Of a stretch of DNA of 64,000 bases, positions 2,304-6,199 are shown one piece after another. A program made the translations under genes and the position numbers. The first letter of the stretch is position 1. Each line of letters opens with the position of its first letter. The DNA lies in the IMG/VR virus record IMGVR_UViG_3300044471_000009, positions 1 to 64,000 of that record, one strand, 5' to 3'. The notes below the pieces were generated by a model, which did no database searches, was not told the origin of the DNA, and was given only the letters and a program-made list of their open reading frames with translations. Source of the DNA: a virus (Duplodnaviria > Caudoviricetes).

Positions 2304-2559
2304 AAACCGAAAAACCGCAAGCTGAAGGCATCCGGCAGGGATTGCAGGAGGCGTGGCTTTTACTCGATAAAGGAAGAGGCTATGCGGAACTGCAAGGATG
2401 GACAGCTTGTCAGTGAAATTGAGCTGAAGATTTGTATTGGCCCGCCAGTGCTTTAGATATGGCTTTGCCGCTCACCAATTAACCGCAACCTACTTTGTGG
2501 CTCATTGATTTGATTTCGTGAGCCACAGGATTTTGATTGACAGCCAAGGAAGATGGAAA

Positions 2560-3138
2560 ATGGGACTCGAACACTTCAAACGTTTCACCAGCACAGACAA
2601 GAGTTTTGTTCCGATGGTTTCGATATGGAACAAGGGGCAACTCTGGGTCGGCTCCGGGGCAGTGAATAAGTTCGATCTGGATCGCTTCACGCATGTCGTG
2701 TTTCTCTACGATGAAACGGCAAGAGAAATTGGGCTGCTTTTCAGAGGAAACGACAAGGAAGAAGGAACCATCAAACTCGGCAAACGCCAGACGGGAATAG
2801 TCGTAGGAGCCAAGAATTTTCTTGATTGCTTCAATATCGATTATTCGCAGACAAAACAGTACCTGATGCGTGTTGAGCAGGAGCCTGATTTGTTTGTCAT
2901 CAGCTTGGACAAAGGGAAAATCAGCACAAAAAGCAAAGGAGAGCCTGATGAGGCCGCGCCAGAGCGCAAGGCGGAAATCCTGAAGGTGGTGCGGGTGATG
3001 CGGAGAAAGCCGCGCAACGGCGGCAGGCCGTCCAGCTATCAGGCCATAGCCGACCGTCTCAACGCCGAAGGAATGCCGCCGCTCAAGGGCGGGGAATGGT
3101 CATGGCAAAAAGTGCGAGGATTTCTAAAGAGAGCTTGA
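2560..3138 (+). CDS. Hypothetical protein with C-terminal serine-recombinase-type DNA-binding ('Recombinase') helix region
   Basis: SYQAIADRLNAEGMPPLKGGEWSWQKV resembles the recombinase-domain motif; no catalytic resolvase domain. Confidence 0.6.
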   Translation: MGLEHFKRFTSTDKSFVPMVSIWNKGQLWVGSGAVNKFDLDRFTHVVFLYDETAREIGLLFRGNDKEEGTIKLGKRQTGIVVGAKNFLDCFNIDYSQTKQYLMRVEQEPDLFVISLDKGKISTKSKGEPDEAAPERKAEILKVVRVMRRKPRNGGRPSSYQAIADRLNAEGMPPLKGGEWSWQKVRGFLKRA

Positions 3139-3147
3139 ACGCGCCAT

Positions 3148-3184
3148 AGCCTACCGGAATTTGAGGTTTCGGTAGGCTTCTTTC
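3148..3184 (+). terminator. Intrinsic terminator ending the left + block
   Basis: agcctaccggaa/tttcggtaggct stem followed by a T-rich tail. Confidence 0.7.
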
Positions 3185-3295
3185 GCCCGATCATAGTCCT
3201 CTTTCGGCACCTTCTTTTGCTCCAGCTCGTTCGCCCTGATTATTTCAAGGAAACGGCGGGCGGCTTCACCTTTCAAAACGGGGGTGTCTTTGATT

Positions 3296-3598
3296 TTAGT
3301 TGCCATAGTGAATACCCCTGCTTGCCTCTAAATCGGCAAAATCAATGCGTCGCTGTTCTGCCTGCTCAAGTATGCGCTGCGCAATCTTGCAGGCCTGGCT
3401 GTAGTCAATGTTCGCTGGCCGCCCCGTCTCTTCGCAATACTCAAGGTACCGCTCCACAGCCTCCTTAAACGCTGTTTCCAGCTCTTCCAGTGATTCACCT
3501 TCGTAGGTTATCAAGTCACGGATAAAGGCAATCTGGCCGTGATAGCAGCCGTCCTCGAAGCTATATTCTGATGTTCCGGTGTATCCTTTATGTCTCAT
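3296..3598 (-). CDS. hicB: HicB-like antitoxin domain without C-terminal DNA-binding domain
   Basis: YHGQIAFIRDLITYEGESLEELETAFKEAVERYLEYCEETGR matches the HicB N-terminal domain; no hicA adjacent. Confidence 0.8.
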   Translation of the reverse strand: MRHKGYTGTSEYSFEDGCYHGQIAFIRDLITYEGESLEELETAFKEAVERYLEYCEETGRPANIDYSQACKIAQRILEQAEQRRIDFADLEASRGIHYGN

Positions 3599-3604
3599 TT
3601 GAAA

Positions 3605-4009
3605 TCATCTGTAATTCTTCGATAACGAGATTGCATCGAGAGCGGCAACGCCATTGAAAAAAACCTCGTCGTATCTCGGCGGAACAGGTGTTATCTTGCT
3701 CTTGTTCCGCTCCTTCTTCACTTCCATCCGTTCCCTGAATCGCTTCCGAAAAGCCTCGTACTTCAGCTCTTTGCGCAGGAATTTGATTTCTTCCGGCAGC
3801 AGCAGTGCTTTCCGGCTCCGGCATATTTCCAGACCAATCAGTTTATGCAGCTTCTCCGGGGCTGGAATGGCCGCGTATTCCTCGCCGCAGGAGCCGCAGC
3901 GGTATTGGGTGATGCCCAGCAAAAGCACGGGCAAACCGCATTCTGTGTATTCGTAGGGCTTGTCCTTGATGACCTCAAGAGCGTTGCCGCAAACATAGCA
4001 TTTTTCCAT
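3605..4009 (-). CDS. mqsA: MqsA/YgiT-type zinc-finger antitoxin-like protein, HTH truncated
   Basis: CYVCG...CGLPVLLLGITQYRCGSCGE Zn domain, then LLPEEIKFLRKEL (first HTH helix), after which similarity is lost. Confidence 0.75.
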   Translation of the reverse strand: MEKCYVCGNALEVIKDKPYEYTECGLPVLLLGITQYRCGSCGEEYAAIPAPEKLHKLIGLEICRSRKALLLPEEIKFLRKELKYEAFRKRFRERMEVKKERNKSKITPVPPRYDEVFFNGVAALDAISLSKNYR

Positions 4010-4054
4010 TGTGCCGCCTCAATTTTCAGGTTTCTATCTTTTTGTTTTTAATAA

Positions 4055-4094
4055 ATAAAAAAGCCTGCTTACCTTATCGATAAGGTAAGCAGGC
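4055..4094 (-). terminator. Intrinsic terminator (32-nt perfect palindrome plus U-tract)
   Basis: gcctgcttaccttatcgataaggtaagcaggc at 4063-4094, followed on - by TTTTTTATTT. Confidence 0.85.
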
Positions 4095-4157
4095 GCAGGA
4101 ATGCCCGCACGGTGTTGCGGCCAAGGCTACAACAGTTAGTCGGACACGACTGCCAGC

Positions 4158-4186
4158 ATTTTACCATGACACGCTATCTTTTGCAA
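4158..4186 (-). promoter_or_regulatory. Sigma70-type promoter
   Basis: TTGCAA-17 bp-TAAAAT with extended -10 TG. Confidence 0.7.
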
Positions 4187-4187
4187 A

Positions 4188-4219
4188 TAAAAAACCGAGC
4201 TAAACAAGCAGCCCGGTCG
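4188..4219 (-). terminator. Terminator of the tRNA cluster
   Basis: ACCGGGCT/AGCTCGGT stem followed by TTTTT on -. Confidence 0.65.
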
Positions 4220-4263
4220 CCTGCAACACAGGCATTAGTGAGACAGCCATGCTGATATGCTGC

Positions 4264-4335
4264 TTAGTCGCTGATGCAGGACTCGAACCTGCTGCCCTTT
4301 CGTATAGATATCGACAAGCACCGCGCCATCGGCGA
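4264..4335 (-). pseudogene. tRNA-like element (intact T-arm, degenerate D and anticodon arms)
   Basis: GCAGG-TTCGAGT-CCTGC T-arm and TCGCCGA/TCAGCGA acceptor-like stem; no CCA. Confidence 0.5.
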
Positions 4336-4341
4336 TAAATT

Positions 4342-4417
4342 TGGTGCTCCTGGAGGGATTTGAACCCCCAACCGTCCGGTTATGAGCCAGCGGCTCTGCC
4401 AGTTGAGCTACAGGAGC
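4342..4417 (-). tRNA. tRNA with CAU anticodon (elongator Met or Ile2)
   Basis: GCTCCTG/CAGGAGC acceptor, CT-CAT-AA loop, TTCAAAT T-loop, encoded CCA. Confidence 0.9.
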
Positions 4418-4418
4418 T

Positions 4419-4494
4419 TGGCGGCCCCGGAGAGAATCGAACTCCCAACCTACGCGATAGGAGCGCGATGCTCTATCCTTTGAGCTACGGGGCC
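4419..4494 (-). tRNA. tRNA-Arg(CCU)
   Basis: Canonical cloverleaf, CT-CCT-AT loop, encoded CCA. Confidence 0.9.
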
Positions 4495-4760
4495 GTGATT
4501 GACTTGTAGTGCATTGCCGGATCATATTCAGTTATCTGCGCAGGATCAACGCAATACCAATTCACAGTTTTGTGAGATTTTGACCACACAATTTCTAACT
4601 CTTCGTTATTGCGGCACTTAAACAGACCGCCCACTCTCCACATCATGCCACCGTACAACTTGGCATGATGCCGTATCCATGATTCTGCATGGCTCTTTTT
4701 GTTCCATGAGAGGCCATCAACAATAGAACCATCTTTTCTTTTCAATGAATATCGTGCCAT
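4485..4760 (-). CDS. Hypothetical protein inside the tRNA cluster
   Basis: ORF track; stop codon overlaps the 5' end of tRNA-Arg. Confidence 0.5.
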   Translation of the reverse strand: MARYSLKRKDGSIVDGLSWNKKSHAESWIRHHAKLYGGMMWRVGGLFKCRNNEELEIVWSKSHKTVNWYCVDPAQITEYDPAMHYKSITAP

Positions 4761-4817
4761 GATAATAGAAATTGCAGGCATTTCACCTGCCGGGCTGCTA
4801 TTTCAAGCCATGTTCAC

Positions 4818-4892
4818 TGGCGACCCGTGGCGGAATTGAACCGCCGTTTCTGCCTTGAAAGGGCAGCGTCTTTACCACTTGACGAACGGGCC
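4818..4892 (-). tRNA. tRNA-Glu(UUC)
   Basis: CTGCC-CTTTCAA-GGCAG anticodon arm, canonical D and T arms, CCA. Confidence 0.95.
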
Positions 4893-4896
4893 TTAA

Positions 4897-4966
4897 ATCT
4901 CTCCAGCCCGGAATTGAACCAGGTTCTTGCGCAAGGCAAACCATCGCTCTTTTGAGCTACTGGAGG
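4897..4966 (-). pseudogene. tRNA-like element (D-arm and T-arm, scrambled anticodon arm)
   Basis: CTCCAG/CTGGAG acceptor, GCTC-AAAA-GAGC D-arm, CCTGG-TTCAATT-CCGGG T-arm. Confidence 0.55.
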
Positions 4967-5181
4967 TGTTTTAAAGATACCAATCATCGGTGAGTGTAGC
5001 CGAAATTTATCTTCAAGCTTCCTCAATCCCACCATTAAAGAAGATAAAGACAACCCCCGCCTGGATTAGACCATCCGCCCGCCGCACTCGTATTAGTTTT
5101 ACTGGACGATGATTGATAAACTGCTTCAAGTAACCGGCTTTGGTGCGCAGTTCTGCGAGATGCGTTGCCGGTGTTATTCAT

Positions 5182-5264
5182 TGGCTGGCCCGGCAGGAAT
5201 CGAACCTGCGTTAGGGTGTTTGCTGATCAGTGGCCACCCCAGCCTTCCACTTGGCTACAGGCCA
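5182..5264 (-). ncRNA. tRNA-Gln-like RNA with a 16-nt anticodon loop
   Basis: TGGCCTG/CGGGCCA acceptor plus GCCA end, GCC-AAGTGGA-AGGC D-arm, GCAGG-TTCGATT-CCTGC T-arm; loop GCCACTGATCAGCAAA. Confidence 0.7.
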
Positions 5265-5272
5265 ATATTTCT

Positions 5273-5356
5273 CAAATTCGCCCCTCGGCAGGATTCCGCC
5301 TGCGCGTTTGTCGGACTGGCCGTCCGTGCCATTTGTCTCACTTGAGTTACCGCAAA
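5273..5356 (-). pseudogene. Highly degenerate tRNA-like element
   Basis: TA-ACTC-AAGT-GAG D-like arm, CGGAC/GTCCG hairpin, GCAGG-CGGAAT-CCTGC T-like arm. Confidence 0.3.
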
Positions 5357-5414
5357 GTTATTGCCTTGCGGACATATCATGCGGTATCGCAGCCGCACTC
5401 CCTTCGCGCCTGCA

Positions 5415-5525
5415 CTCGGCAAACGATCAGGAATCGAACCTGACCTACTTGGGGTGAATGACGAGACTTCAACTCGAACCTCTCAGGTTCACAGCATTGA
5501 TGCTCTACCATTGAGCTATTCCCGC
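5415..5525 (-). ncRNA. tRNA-like element with a hairpin inserted in the anticodon loop and a long variable region
   Basis: GCGGGAATAGCTCAATGGTAGAGCA 5' half; TCAAT/GTTGA stem around a 22-nt loop; TCAGG-TTCGATT-CCTGA T-arm. Confidence 0.5.
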
Positions 5526-5540
5526 AAACTCCATTGCTTT

Positions 5541-5831
5541 CTACCGAAAACCCCGCTTTCCTGTTATTTCATCAAGCATACGCTGCCGGTTTGCGTCGGC
5601 TTCGCTGCCACTGCCAGCTACAGCATTAAGCATGACAGGAATAACCAATATCAATGATTCAACAGGGAAGAGGCCATGATCAACAACCCCTTCGTCGTTG
5701 AGCCATTCACATTTGAAGTTGCCGTCTGGACGCTTCTCAATGGCCGTCACCTTCATCTCCGGGCCGCCAGATTTCAGTCTAACGGTATCGCCAACCTGAA
5801 CCGCAACCGGACCTTCTGTTTTAAAGATCAT
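5541..5831 (-). CDS. YodC/DUF2158-like small beta protein
   Basis: VGDTVRLKSGGPEMKVTAI...CEW motif. Confidence 0.8.
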   Translation of the reverse strand: MIFKTEGPVAVQVGDTVRLKSGGPEMKVTAIEKRPDGNFKCEWLNDEGVVDHGLFPVESLILVIPVMLNAVAGSGSEADANRQRMLDEITGKRGFR

Positions 5832-5868
5832 TTCCACGTTTGCTTTCCTCTTGACTTTAAACGCTAAT

Positions 5869-6072
5869 CTAAAGCGAATCAATGAAAGGCGCGACTACCA
5901 ACATGCAACACAGAAATTCACTCCCCAGGCACGTCCAGTCTTGGGTGAACCATACGTAGCTTGCGGCCTGACCTGCACTTGGAGTGAACAAGCCTTCAAT
6001 AGCCATATTCTGGCCACTGGCATTGAGCCTGACTACATCTCCAGCTTTCATCTCTGCTTCATTCAAAGCCAT
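5869..6072 (-). CDS. Second, divergent YodC/DUF2158-like protein
   Basis: MKAGDVVRLNASGQNMAI...VWF. Confidence 0.6.
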   Translation of the reverse strand: MALNEAEMKAGDVVRLNASGQNMAIEGLFTPSAGQAASYVWFTQDWTCLGSEFLCCMLVVAPFIDSL

Positions 6073-6113
6073 CGCTTTCCCTCTCGGAAAAGAGATATTT
6101 GCCAACTAAAAAA

Positions 6114-6199
6114 TGGCGGAGGAAGTAGGATTCGAACCCACGGTGCTTTCGCACAACGGTTTTCAAGACCGCCGCCTTCAACCGCTCGGCCATTCCTCC
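6114..6199 (-). tRNA. tRNA-Ser(UGA)
   Basis: Class II tRNA: GCGGT-CTTGAAA-ACCGT anticodon arm, long variable arm, CCA. Confidence 0.95.

What the first reader, a model, noticed from the sequence alone, without database searches (positions are those of the whole stretch)
3296..4009. Two toxin-less antitoxin mimics that keep the toxin-binding domain and lose the DNA-binding domain
Seen: adjacent MqsA-like (Zn-finger intact, HTH stops after helix 1) and HicB-like (N-domain intact, RHH/HTH replaced) genes, with no mqsR or hicA between or beside them. Established: the MqsA Zn domain binds MqsR and the HicB N-domain binds HicA; both toxins are RNases, and orphan phage antitoxins such as T4 Dmd neutralise host toxins. 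Inference: this is an anti-TA counter-defence cassette. The same loss in two unrelated families, next to a tRNA island, suggests selection rather than decay.
Basis: partly seen in the sequence, partly recalled or inferred. Interest (0 to 1): 0.72.

Follow-up and report, generated by a model that had tools for sequence, protein, structure and literature searches.

The report
Phage operon of three toxin-less antitoxins
An uncultured phage carries three adjacent genes copied from bacterial antitoxins but no toxin gene, one nearly identical to the toxin-binding half of a Desulfobulbales-type antitoxin, so it probably disarms host suicide toxins; this is untested.

Summary
Window 3151-4009 (minus strand) is a tightly coupled three-gene operon.

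- ORF A (4009..3605, 134 aa) has the zinc-ribbon domain of an MqsA/YgiT-family antitoxin. It is 97% identical in DNA, and 82/82 in protein, to full-length antitoxin genes on metagenome contigs. Homology stops exactly before HTH helix 2. The HTH is replaced by a small 'PRYDEVF' module that also occurs as a stand-alone phage protein.
- ORF B (3598..3296, 100 aa) is a HicB N-domain with a degenerate or truncated RHH.
That gene sits directly upstream of an AtaT/KacT/TacT-like GNAT toxin.

The cognate toxin of ORF A's relatives is a DUF4258 (BECR RNase-like) protein, not MqsR. The 90-kb record holds no HicA, MqsR or DUF4258 family match and no relative of the two host partner proteins of ORF C.

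The four nucleotide changes assigned to the phage lineage in the captured domain are all synonymous. The HTH-less form recurs on three other contigs.

The best reading is an anti-toxin counter-defence cassette, a known kind in a new variant; neutralisation is untested. HicB proteins without a DNA-binding domain are common, which weakens the 'same loss twice' argument. This scan has noted orphan MqsA and HicB domains in other phages before.

The parts
3605..4009 (-). ORF A, 134 aa: a chimera of an MqsA/YgiT-type zinc-ribbon domain and a PRYDEVF tail, with no HTH
   Evidence: ORF list. TIGR03830 positions 1-80/127, E 2.6e-8. Homologues. AF2 model pLDDT 76, with the zinc ribbon at 86-91. The top Foldseek hits are MqsA 3gn5/3ga8/3hi2, but weak: E 0.03-0.09; VIA Z 3.8-3.9.
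3764..4020 (-). Captured module: RBS plus codons 1-82 (zinc ribbon, linker helix, HTH helix 1)
   Evidence: blastn gives 97.3% identity over 257 nt to L003 and 91.8% to L004, with sharp breaks at both ends. Against L003 there are 7 synonymous and 0 non-synonymous differences. The domain is 82/82 identical to the full-length proteins P0004 and P0007.
3608..3763 (-). Tail module, codons 83-134: a basic helix plus the PPRYDEVFFNG motif, in place of the HTH
   Evidence: phmmer against 1.84 billion representatives found 13 hits: stand-alone 54-90 aa proteins, a doubled form, and fusions. It is a stand-alone ORF of about 50-60 aa in most of 8 diverse IMG/VR phage loci and part of a longer ORF in three. 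The AF2 model is helical with low confidence, pLDDT 52-70.
3296..3598 (-). ORF B, 100 aa: HicB N-domain (about residues 1-63) plus a 35-aa helical remnant of the RHH
   Evidence: phrog_9151 E 4.4e-23, positions 5-71/119. tblastn hits phage HicBs over residues 1-60. AF2 gives beta-beta-beta-alpha plus a long helix, pLDDT 70. 6g1c_B (HicB N-domain) matches with probability 0.96, rmsd 2.1 A over 58 columns, though Foldseek E is 0.42. The tail aligns with RHH helix 1. The start codon lies 6 nt after ORF A's stop codon.
3151..3306 (-). ORF C, 51 aa: orphan homologue of a small host gene that precedes a GNAT toxin or a membrane protein
   Evidence: 23 homologues. 81-87% identity in 7 of 301 Desulfobulbales genomes. 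In the host loci it overlaps the start of a 179-aa GNAT gene or precedes a 241-247 aa membrane-protein gene. It overlaps the end of ORF B by 11 nt.
4063..4094 (-). Perfect 32-nt palindromic terminator-like hairpin, 53 nt upstream of ORF A's start codon
   Evidence: Terminator scan: 14 pairs followed by a T-run. Self-match on the opposite strand. The fold of 4155..4005 has z -5.05. No Rfam family matches.
4158..4187 (-). Sigma-70-like promoter match (TTGCAA-17-TG-TAAAAT) between the tRNA terminator and the hairpin
   Evidence: Consensus scan, 9 of 12 positions. This is a consensus match only.
4342..6199 (-). tRNA island upstream on the same strand (Met-CAT, Arg-CCT, Glu-TTC, Ser-ACT, Ser-TGA)
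   Evidence: ARAGORN.

Best explanation
ORFs A, B and C form one operon that supplies the infected cell with toxin-binding parts of three host-type antitoxins, without any toxin and without DNA-binding domains. When infection lowers the level of the host's own antitoxins, the phage copies would keep the released toxins bound, so abortive infection fails.

Shown:
- The gene architecture and the absence of detectable toxin genes in the record.
- ORF A's domain is protein-identical to full-length antitoxins of DUF4258-MqsA pairs.
- There are sharp recombination boundaries at the domain border.
- ORF C and ORF B have homologues in Desulfobulbales TA-like operons.

Inferred:
- ORF A binds DUF4258 toxins through the zinc domain, as E. 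coli MqsA-N binds MqsR.
- ORF B binds HicA-type toxins.
- ORF C binds an AtaT/TacT-like GNAT toxin.
- The host systems act as defence.
- Losing the HTH makes a pure toxin sponge that neither dimerises through the HTH nor binds the host operator.

The role of the PRYDEVF tail is unknown.
For: 1. ORF A codons 1-82 plus the RBS are 97.3% identical in nucleotides to L003 and 91.8% to L004. Homology ends abruptly at ...FLRKEL, before HTH helix 2.
2. Nearly all full-length relatives whose flanks I inspected (metagenome contigs and Desulfobulbia MAGs) have a gene of about 100 aa directly upstream. The five I scanned match DUF4258 at E 1e-8 to 1e-11. L031 is an exception with none, and in L003 the toxin gene lies convergent downstream.
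3. Phage versus L003 shows 7 synonymous and 0 non-synonymous changes (58 synonymous and 188 non-synonymous sites). Four of these map to the phage lineage when L004 and L005 are used as outgroups.
4. Four HTH-less forms (window, P0001, P0002, P0094) share the same junction. They keep 81-82 of 82 N-domain residues, while their tails are only 47-82% identical.
5. All 33 of 301 Desulfobulbales genomes with this family have open frames of 176-205 aa, apart from one broken copy. None has the HTH-less form.
6. ORF C homologues (81-87% identity) directly precede a GNAT whose best PDB matches are AtaT, KacT and TacT.
7. ORF B's N-domain is 55-61% identical to host HicBs. The four host loci I resolved have hicA directly upstream. 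L036 shows a Pfam-confirmed hicA-hicB pair.
8. No toxin homologue was found in the 90-kb record.
9. The genes are packed: 6 nt between A and B, and an 11-nt overlap between B and C.
10. MqsA-N alone binds MqsR, and it was co-expressed with MqsR in the toxicity assay of Fig. 4A; the HTH mediates DNA binding and dimerisation (PMC2791442). The HicB N-domain neutralises HicA (PMC11594946).
Against: - No binding or rescue data exist, and no complex model could be run.
- DUF4258 toxins are uncharacterised (PMC11980606). None of the host modules matches PADLOC defence models, apart from generic HTH hits, so a defence role is assumed.
- ORF B has no near-identical host source, and HicBs without a DNA-binding domain are common.
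- ORF C's antitoxin role rests on gene position only. It has no Pfam, NCBIfam or PDB match.
- The record is rated 78% complete, so a toxin could lie in missing sequence.
- Co-occurrence of A, B and C on other contigs is inferred from equal contig lengths, not read from DNA.
- The structural match of ORF A to MqsA-N is weak (E 0.03; Z 3.9).
Confidence: 0.6

Rival explanations
1. The targets are toxins of competing mobile elements (satellites, integrative elements, plasmids, prophages) rather than chromosomal host defence. On this reading the cassette is an anti-addiction or anti-satellite device.
For: The two closest sources of the captured domain (L003 at 97%, L004 at 92%) lie next to an AAA_25 RepA-like/helicase-type gene (E 5.9e-6, just under the Pfam cut-off). 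Such genes are typical of small mobile elements. The near-identical copies occur only on metagenome contigs; the best species-representative genome reaches 79%.
Against: The contigs are short (1.7 and 4.4 kb), and I did not find an integrase, att site or satellite hallmark. Mechanistically this is the same toxin sponge, so it is a variant of the main reading rather than an alternative.
Confidence: 0.15
2. The genes are remnants of TA modules once carried by the phage. The toxins were lost and the antitoxin pieces are drifting, with no present function.
For: Phages do carry complete hicAB modules (L036). ORF B's C-terminus looks like a degraded RHH. B-type relatives end at several different points: 66-81, 96-100 and 151 aa.
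Against: All three frames are intact and translationally coupled. The 4 phage-lineage changes in the captured domain are all synonymous; the chance under neutrality is about 0.236^4 = 0.003. The same in-frame junction is kept in four forms with diverged tails. The homology block starts at the RBS, so no toxin gene or promoter came in with it.
Confidence: 0.12
3. The proteins do something other than toxin neutralisation. The PRYDEVF module may be the working part of ORF A, with the zinc ribbon as an accessory. HicB-N-like and ORF C-like proteins may bind RNA or other host factors.
For: The PRYDEVF module is widespread as a stand-alone phage ORF in replication, lysis and tail contexts that have no TA link. 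HicB N-domains have a partial RNase H-like fold, and ORF B's model also hits dsRBD-like folds. ORF C has no known domain.
Against: This does not explain why the zinc domain is kept protein-identical to a full-length TA-type antitoxin. It also does not explain why three antitoxin relatives sit in one operon.
Confidence: 0.13

Closest known systems
E. coli MqsA N-terminal domain (MqsA-N, residues 1-76; PDB 3GA8, and 3HI2 in complex with MqsR)
   Same: A CxxC...CxxC zinc ribbon followed by a long helix. This domain alone binds the toxin, while the HTH domain does DNA binding and dimerisation (PMC2791442). The profile of ORF A's family hits 3gn5 at E 9.6e-8.
   Different: About 25% identity. The partner toxin here is DUF4258, not MqsR. 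The natural phage protein lacks the HTH and carries an unrelated tail.
Phage orphan antitoxins and antitoxin mimics: AdfN (DarG1-like NADAR, T4-like phages, PMC11825919), the antitoxin mimic of PMC11481870 against DarTG, and T4 Dmd
   Same: A phage-encoded, toxin-less relative or mimic of a host antitoxin used to defeat a TA-type defence. The concept is established by experiment for those cases.
   Different: Those act on type IV (enzymatic) or RnlA/LsoA systems. Here there are three type II-style binding domains in one operon, one of them a recent domain-precise capture fused to a phage module. No function has been tested.
Pseudo-ToxI of phage PhiTE (PMC3475682)
   Same: A phage carries an antitoxin mimic that lets it escape a TA-based abortive-infection system (abstract).
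   Different: That antitoxin is an RNA (type III).
HicB antitoxins with an RHH domain (PF05534; B. pseudomallei HicB, PDB 6G1C for the N-domain)
   Same: ORF B's N-domain is homologous (55-61% to host HicBs; phrog_9151 E 4e-23). The HicB N-domain is the part that masks the HicA active site (PMC11594946).
   Different: There is no hicA gene, and the RHH is truncated or degenerate. Close relatives stop right after the N-domain.
GNAT-toxin TA pairs (AtaRT, KacAT, TacAT)
   Same: Host homologues of ORF C sit directly upstream of, and overlap, a GNAT that is most similar to AtaT, KacT and TacT. The order is antitoxin first, then toxin.
   Different: ORF C (51 aa) has no DUF1778/RHH signature. The same small protein also pairs with a membrane protein in two host loci. 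Its antitoxin activity is inferred from position only.

Membership tests
MqsA/YgiT antitoxin family (TIGR03830, PF15731) | N-terminal CxxC...CxxC zinc-ribbon domain | tested here: met
   C4, C7, C38 and C41 are invariant. TIGR03831 scores 19.1 bits (cut-off 20.2) and TIGR03830 is E 2.6e-8. The domain is 82/82 identical to P0004 and P0007, which carry PF15731 plus PF01381.
MqsA/YgiT antitoxin family (TIGR03830, PF15731) | C-terminal HTH-XRE DNA-binding and dimerisation domain | tested here: not met
   The profile match stops at 80/127 and scores 33.7 bits against a cut-off of 61.8. DNA homology to full-length genes ends at codon 82. Residues 83-134 belong to a different module.
MqsA/YgiT antitoxin family (TIGR03830, PF15731) | Adjacent cognate toxin gene (toxin first, then antitoxin) | tested here: not met
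   Upstream of ORF A are a terminator hairpin and tRNA genes. There is no MqsR or DUF4258 match in the record.
HicB antitoxin family (PF05534 / phrog_9151) | N-terminal partial RNase H-like, HicA-binding domain | tested here: met
   phrog_9151 E 4.4e-23. 55-61% identity to host HicBs. 6g1c_B matches with probability 0.96, rmsd 2.1 A over 58 columns, though Foldseek E is 0.42.
HicB antitoxin family (PF05534 / phrog_9151) | C-terminal RHH or HTH DNA-binding domain | tested here: inconclusive
   No Pfam HicB or RHH hit. The tail aligns with RHH helix 1 but lacks the FNVR strand and most of helix 2. AF2 gives one long helix at pLDDT 57-65.
HicB antitoxin family (PF05534 / phrog_9151) | Adjacent hicA toxin gene | tested here: not met
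   No PF07927 match at E<=10 in the record. The upstream gene is ORF A.
Antitoxins of GNAT (TacT/AtaT/KacT-type) toxins | Homologue located directly upstream of a GNAT toxin in cellular genomes | tested here: met
   In L039, L040, L041 and L044 a 54-aa homologue overlaps a 179-aa GNAT gene by 8 nt. The GNAT hits AtaT, KacT and TacT structures at E 1e-6 to 2e-5.
Antitoxins of GNAT (TacT/AtaT/KacT-type) toxins | RHH/DUF1778 (TacA-like) domain | tested here: not met
   ORF C and its host homologue have no Pfam or NCBIfam hit. The family profile has no PDB sequence hit.
Phage orphan-antitoxin counter-defence genes | Phage-encoded, homologous to a host antitoxin, no toxin in the phage | tested here: met
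   The record has phage hallmark genes. Homology is shown. Toxin searches were empty.
Phage orphan-antitoxin counter-defence genes | Neutralises the host toxin and restores phage growth on a TA-bearing host | not testable with these tools
   This needs co-expression or infection assays.

The most novel reading that the evidence does not exclude
The PRYDEVF module may be a phage 'acceptor' scaffold onto which toxin-binding domains of whatever antitoxin the local host uses are recombined. Examples are the zinc domain alone (window, P0001, P0002, P0094), the zinc domain plus HTH (P0003), and a Panacea-like domain (P0060). The module itself would add a general function, such as stabilisation against host proteases or oligomerisation. 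That would be a plug-and-play system for pirating antitoxins. It would explain why the captured domain is 99-100% identical across forms whose tails differ by half.
Probability: 0.15. Interest if true: 0.85.

Novelty: new variant of a known kind. Interest (0 to 1): 0.62.

Why it matters
Phage antitoxin mimics are proven for only a few systems, and their origins are usually obscure. Here the source gene, the exact recombination boundaries and the candidate toxin can all be read from sequence. That gives three concrete toxin/anti-toxin pairs to test in E. coli.

It would also give a first functional handle on two things:
- DUF4258 toxins, which a 2025 survey describes as undescribed in the literature (PMC11980606).
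- The widespread PRYDEVF family of small phage proteins.

The cassette also points to a Desulfobulbales host (Desulfopila, Desulfocapsaceae, Electrothrix/cable-bacteria relatives) for an uncultured 90-kb phage.

All three presumed targets act on translation, so this may be one translation-protection locus:
- HicA is an RNase (PMC11594946).
- DUF4258 is placed in the colicin-like BECR ribonuclease branch by a 2026 preprint.
- AtaT/TacT-type GNATs acetylate charged tRNA (my own knowledge, not checked here).
- The cassette abuts the phage tRNA island.

That last reading is an inference.

Tried and rejected
- Frameshift explanation for the lost HTH: rejected. DNA homology to full-length genes stops completely at codon 82 in every frame, and the other frame over 3588-3824 shows nothing HTH-like by eye.
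- ORF C as a split-off RHH of HicB: rejected (hhalign probability 0.1).
- PRYDEVF tail as PAD1 of PanA antitoxins: rejected, because PAD1 is N-terminal (PMC8832971).
- The Panacea assignment of P0060 is weak (PF13274 E 0.021, below cut-off), so I treat it only as a lead.
- Phage databases: blastn and tblastn of the region and of ORF A found nothing. IMG/VR scans for ORF A and for the portal protein found no relatives.
- ESM Atlas for ORF C: only unnamed clusters scoring below 0.9.
- PADLOC: no defence-model hits for the phage proteins or the host toxins.
- Rfam on the leader 3950-4350: nothing credible.
- ORF C was not found in five MAGs that hold ORF A relatives.
The 68,205-, 91,909- and 12,627-bp contigs that carry the HTH-less forms could therefore not be read, and gene adjacency there is inferred from matching contig lengths only.
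- Both structure-prediction jobs went on monomers, so no toxin-antitoxin complex was modelled.

Full report
**What is there**

The window is the first 64 kb of an 89,967-bp IMG/VR virus record. It has a terminase, a portal, a DnaB-type helicase and a DNA methyltransferase. Three minus-strand ORFs lie between a convergent plus-strand gene (2518-3138) and a run of five minus-strand tRNA genes (4342-6199):
- ORF A, 4009..3605, 134 aa.
- ORF B, 3598..3296, 100 aa.
- ORF C, 3306..3151, 51 aa.

ORF A's stop codon and ORF B's start codon are 6 nt apart. ORFs B and C overlap by 11 nt. The three genes therefore read as one translationally coupled operon. Upstream are a sigma-70-like promoter match (4187..4158) and a perfect 32-nt palindromic terminator-like hairpin (4094..4063).

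**ORF A**

Profile searches match only the first two thirds of the MqsA/YgiT family: TIGR03830 positions 1-80 of 127, and PF15731 positions 2-83 of 131.

A search of 5.8 billion proteins found 47 relatives. Nearly all of them are full-length proteins of 128-197 aa that carry both the MqsA and HTH Pfam domains. They match ORF A only over residues 1-86, at up to 97% identity. One of them is a protein named from Candidatus Electrothrix marina (84%).

At the DNA level, window 4020..3764 is 97.3% identical to metagenome contig L003 and 91.8% to L004. Homology begins 11 nt before the ATG, so it includes the GAGG ribosome-binding site. It ends abruptly after ...FLRKEL, which is HTH helix 1.

Over codons 1-82 the phage and L003 differ at 7 sites, all of them synonymous (58 synonymous and 188 non-synonymous sites). 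With L004 and L005 as outgroups, four of the changes fall on the phage lineage. The chance that four neutral changes are all synonymous is about 0.003. The captured domain has therefore stayed under purifying selection.

**The toxin**

Nearly all full-length relatives whose flanks I inspected, on metagenome contigs and in Desulfobulbia MAGs (Desulfopila, Desulfocapsaceae), have a gene of about 100 aa directly upstream. The five I scanned belong to DUF4258 (PF14076, E 1e-8 to 1e-11). L031 has no such gene. In L003 the DUF4258 gene is convergent, downstream of the antitoxin. The cognate toxin is thus a DUF4258 BECR-fold protein, not MqsR.

A 2025 survey lists DUF4258 as a TA toxin family with nothing known about it. 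It also records 17 DUF4258-MqsA fusions (PMC11980606). [quoted passage not shown]

Of 301 sampled Desulfobulbales genomes, 33 carry this antitoxin family (best identity 79%). Apart from one broken copy, all have open frames of 176-205 aa. None has the HTH-less form.

**The tail**

Residues 83-134 are not a frameshifted HTH. They form a separate module: a basic helix followed by PPRYDEVF[FY]xGVxxLD.

An exhaustive phmmer search over 1.84 billion representatives found this module in several settings:
- as stand-alone proteins of 54-90 aa;
- doubled, in P0059;
- after a weakly Panacea-like domain, in P0060 (Pfam E 0.02 only);
- after a complete zinc-plus-HTH antitoxin, in P0003.

It is a stand-alone ORF of about 50-60 aa in most of eight diverse IMG/VR phage loci, and part of a longer ORF in three. 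The neighbourhoods are varied.

Four HTH-less forms share exactly the same junction: the window, P0001 (127 aa, 68-kb contig), P0002 (138 aa, 92-kb contig) and P0094 (150 aa, 12.6-kb contig). They keep 81-82 of 82 N-domain residues, while their tails are only 47-82% identical. That contrast suggests either a recent sweep or re-capture of the domain, or very unequal constraint. I could not tell which without the DNA.

**ORF B**

The N-domain (about residues 1-63) is a clear HicB N-domain:
- phrog_9151, E 4.4e-23.
- 55% identity to the mEp234 and HK106 HicB proteins.
- 55-61% identity to HicBs found in 111 of 301 Desulfobulbales genomes.

In the four host loci I resolved, hicB is a 152-183 aa gene (N-domain plus RHH) with an 84-87 aa hicA directly upstream. 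In locus L036 a hicA-hicB pair was confirmed by Pfam.

ORF B's last 35 residues align with RHH helix 1 but lack the DNA-reading strand and most of helix 2. AF2 gives one long, low-confidence helix there. The N-domain superposes on B. pseudomallei HicB-N (6g1c_B, probability 0.96, rmsd 2.1 A over 58 columns, Foldseek E 0.42).

The closest relatives are mostly N-domain-only proteins of 66-81 aa, including one on the 68-kb contig. The HicAB review states that HicBs without a DNA-binding domain are common (PMC11594946). This truncation is therefore less telling than ORF A's.

**ORF C**

It has no Pfam, NCBIfam or PDB match. It does have 23 close homologues, including proteins named from Electrothrix sp. 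EH2 and Desulfobulbus sp. TB.

Seven of 301 Desulfobulbales genomes carry it; six hold near-full-length copies at 76-87% identity and one only a short, weak match. In four host loci the 54-aa homologue overlaps the start of a 179-aa GNAT gene. The best solved relatives of that GNAT are the TA toxins AtaT, KacT and TacT. In two other loci the homologue precedes a 241-247 aa membrane protein.

By its position, ORF C is an antitoxin homologue. The phage-type copies (49-51 aa, ending ...NLKFR) lack the host C-terminal VVCSxxG extension. ORF C is not a split-off RHH of HicB (hhalign probability 0.1).

**No toxins in the phage**

Family searches for HicA, MqsR and DUF4258 found nothing at E<=10 in the whole record. 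Protein searches with the host DUF4258, GNAT and membrane partner found nothing at E<=1. CheckV rates the record 78% complete, so this is strong evidence but not absolute.

**Mechanism**

The best-supported reading is an anti-toxin cassette: three toxin-binding modules made by the phage to keep host toxins bound during infection.

This borrows from experiment in two places. MqsA-N alone binds MqsR, and the two were co-expressed in the toxicity assay, while the HTH does DNA binding and dimerisation (PMC2791442). The HicB N-domain masks the HicA active site. Orphan phage antitoxins are proven for DarTG and other systems (PMC11825919, PMC11481870).

Every binding step for these particular proteins is inferred, as is the defence role of the host modules. 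PADLOC has no model for them.

The rival readings, all less likely, are:
- targets carried on competing mobile elements (L003 and L004 lie next to an AAA_25 helicase-type gene);
- non-functional remnants;
- a function centred on the PRYDEVF module.

**Novelty and score**

The kind is known, and this scan has noted orphan MqsA and HicB domains in other phages. What is new here:
- the directly identifiable source gene, at 97% nucleotide identity;
- the domain-precise replacement of the HTH by a phage module;
- the DUF4258 target;
- the third orphan gene in the operon.

I rate it a new variant of a known kind, interest 0.62.

**Limits**

No complex prediction was possible. The structural match of ORF A to MqsA-N is weak (E 0.03; Z 3.9), so family assignment rests on sequence.

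Noticed in passing
window 4055-4220: On the minus strand, a tRNA-cluster terminator (4218..4193) is followed by a sigma-70-like promoter match (4187..4158) and then a perfect 32-nt palindromic hairpin with a T-run (4094..4063), which ends 53 nt before ORF A's start codon. This could be a leader or attenuator that controls the cassette, or a small RNA. No Rfam family matches; the fold z-score is -5.
   Followed up: partly
window 3151-4009; loci L029-L035 and L037-L044: All host-side relatives of ORFs A, B and C point to Desulfobulbales (Desulfopila, Desulfocapsaceae, Electrothrix, Desulfobulbus) as the host group.
   Followed up: partly
L066-L073 (IMG/VR); P0058-P0068: A family of small phage proteins (about 50-60 aa) with an invariant P-R-Y-D...G motif (PPRYDEVF[FY]xGVxxLD). 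It is found in diverse phages next to replication, lysis or tail genes. The module is doubled in P0059 and fused to other domains in P0060, P0061 and P0003. Its function is unknown.
   Followed up: partly
L037:1369-2430 and L038:728-1716: The same small ORF C-type protein that precedes a GNAT toxin in four host loci precedes an unannotated 241-247 aa membrane protein in two others. This may be one antitoxin type paired with two unrelated effectors.
   Followed up: no
L027:87-1481: A host-type locus in which the DUF4258 toxin gene is intact, but the MqsA-type antitoxin is cut after about 22 codons by a gene I read as a transposase (296 aa; not run against Pfam). This raises the question of how the toxin is tolerated there.
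   Followed up: no
L003:111-993: The closest full-length relative of ORF A (97% nucleotide identity) has its DUF4258 toxin gene convergent and overlapping its 3' end, instead of upstream. An AAA_25-like helicase gene lies beyond it. The arrangement is unusual and may belong to a small mobile element.
   Followed up: no
window 5182-5264: ARAGORN calls a tRNA-Ser with anticodon ACT. An unmodified A34 is unusual in bacterial-type tRNAs.
   Followed up: no
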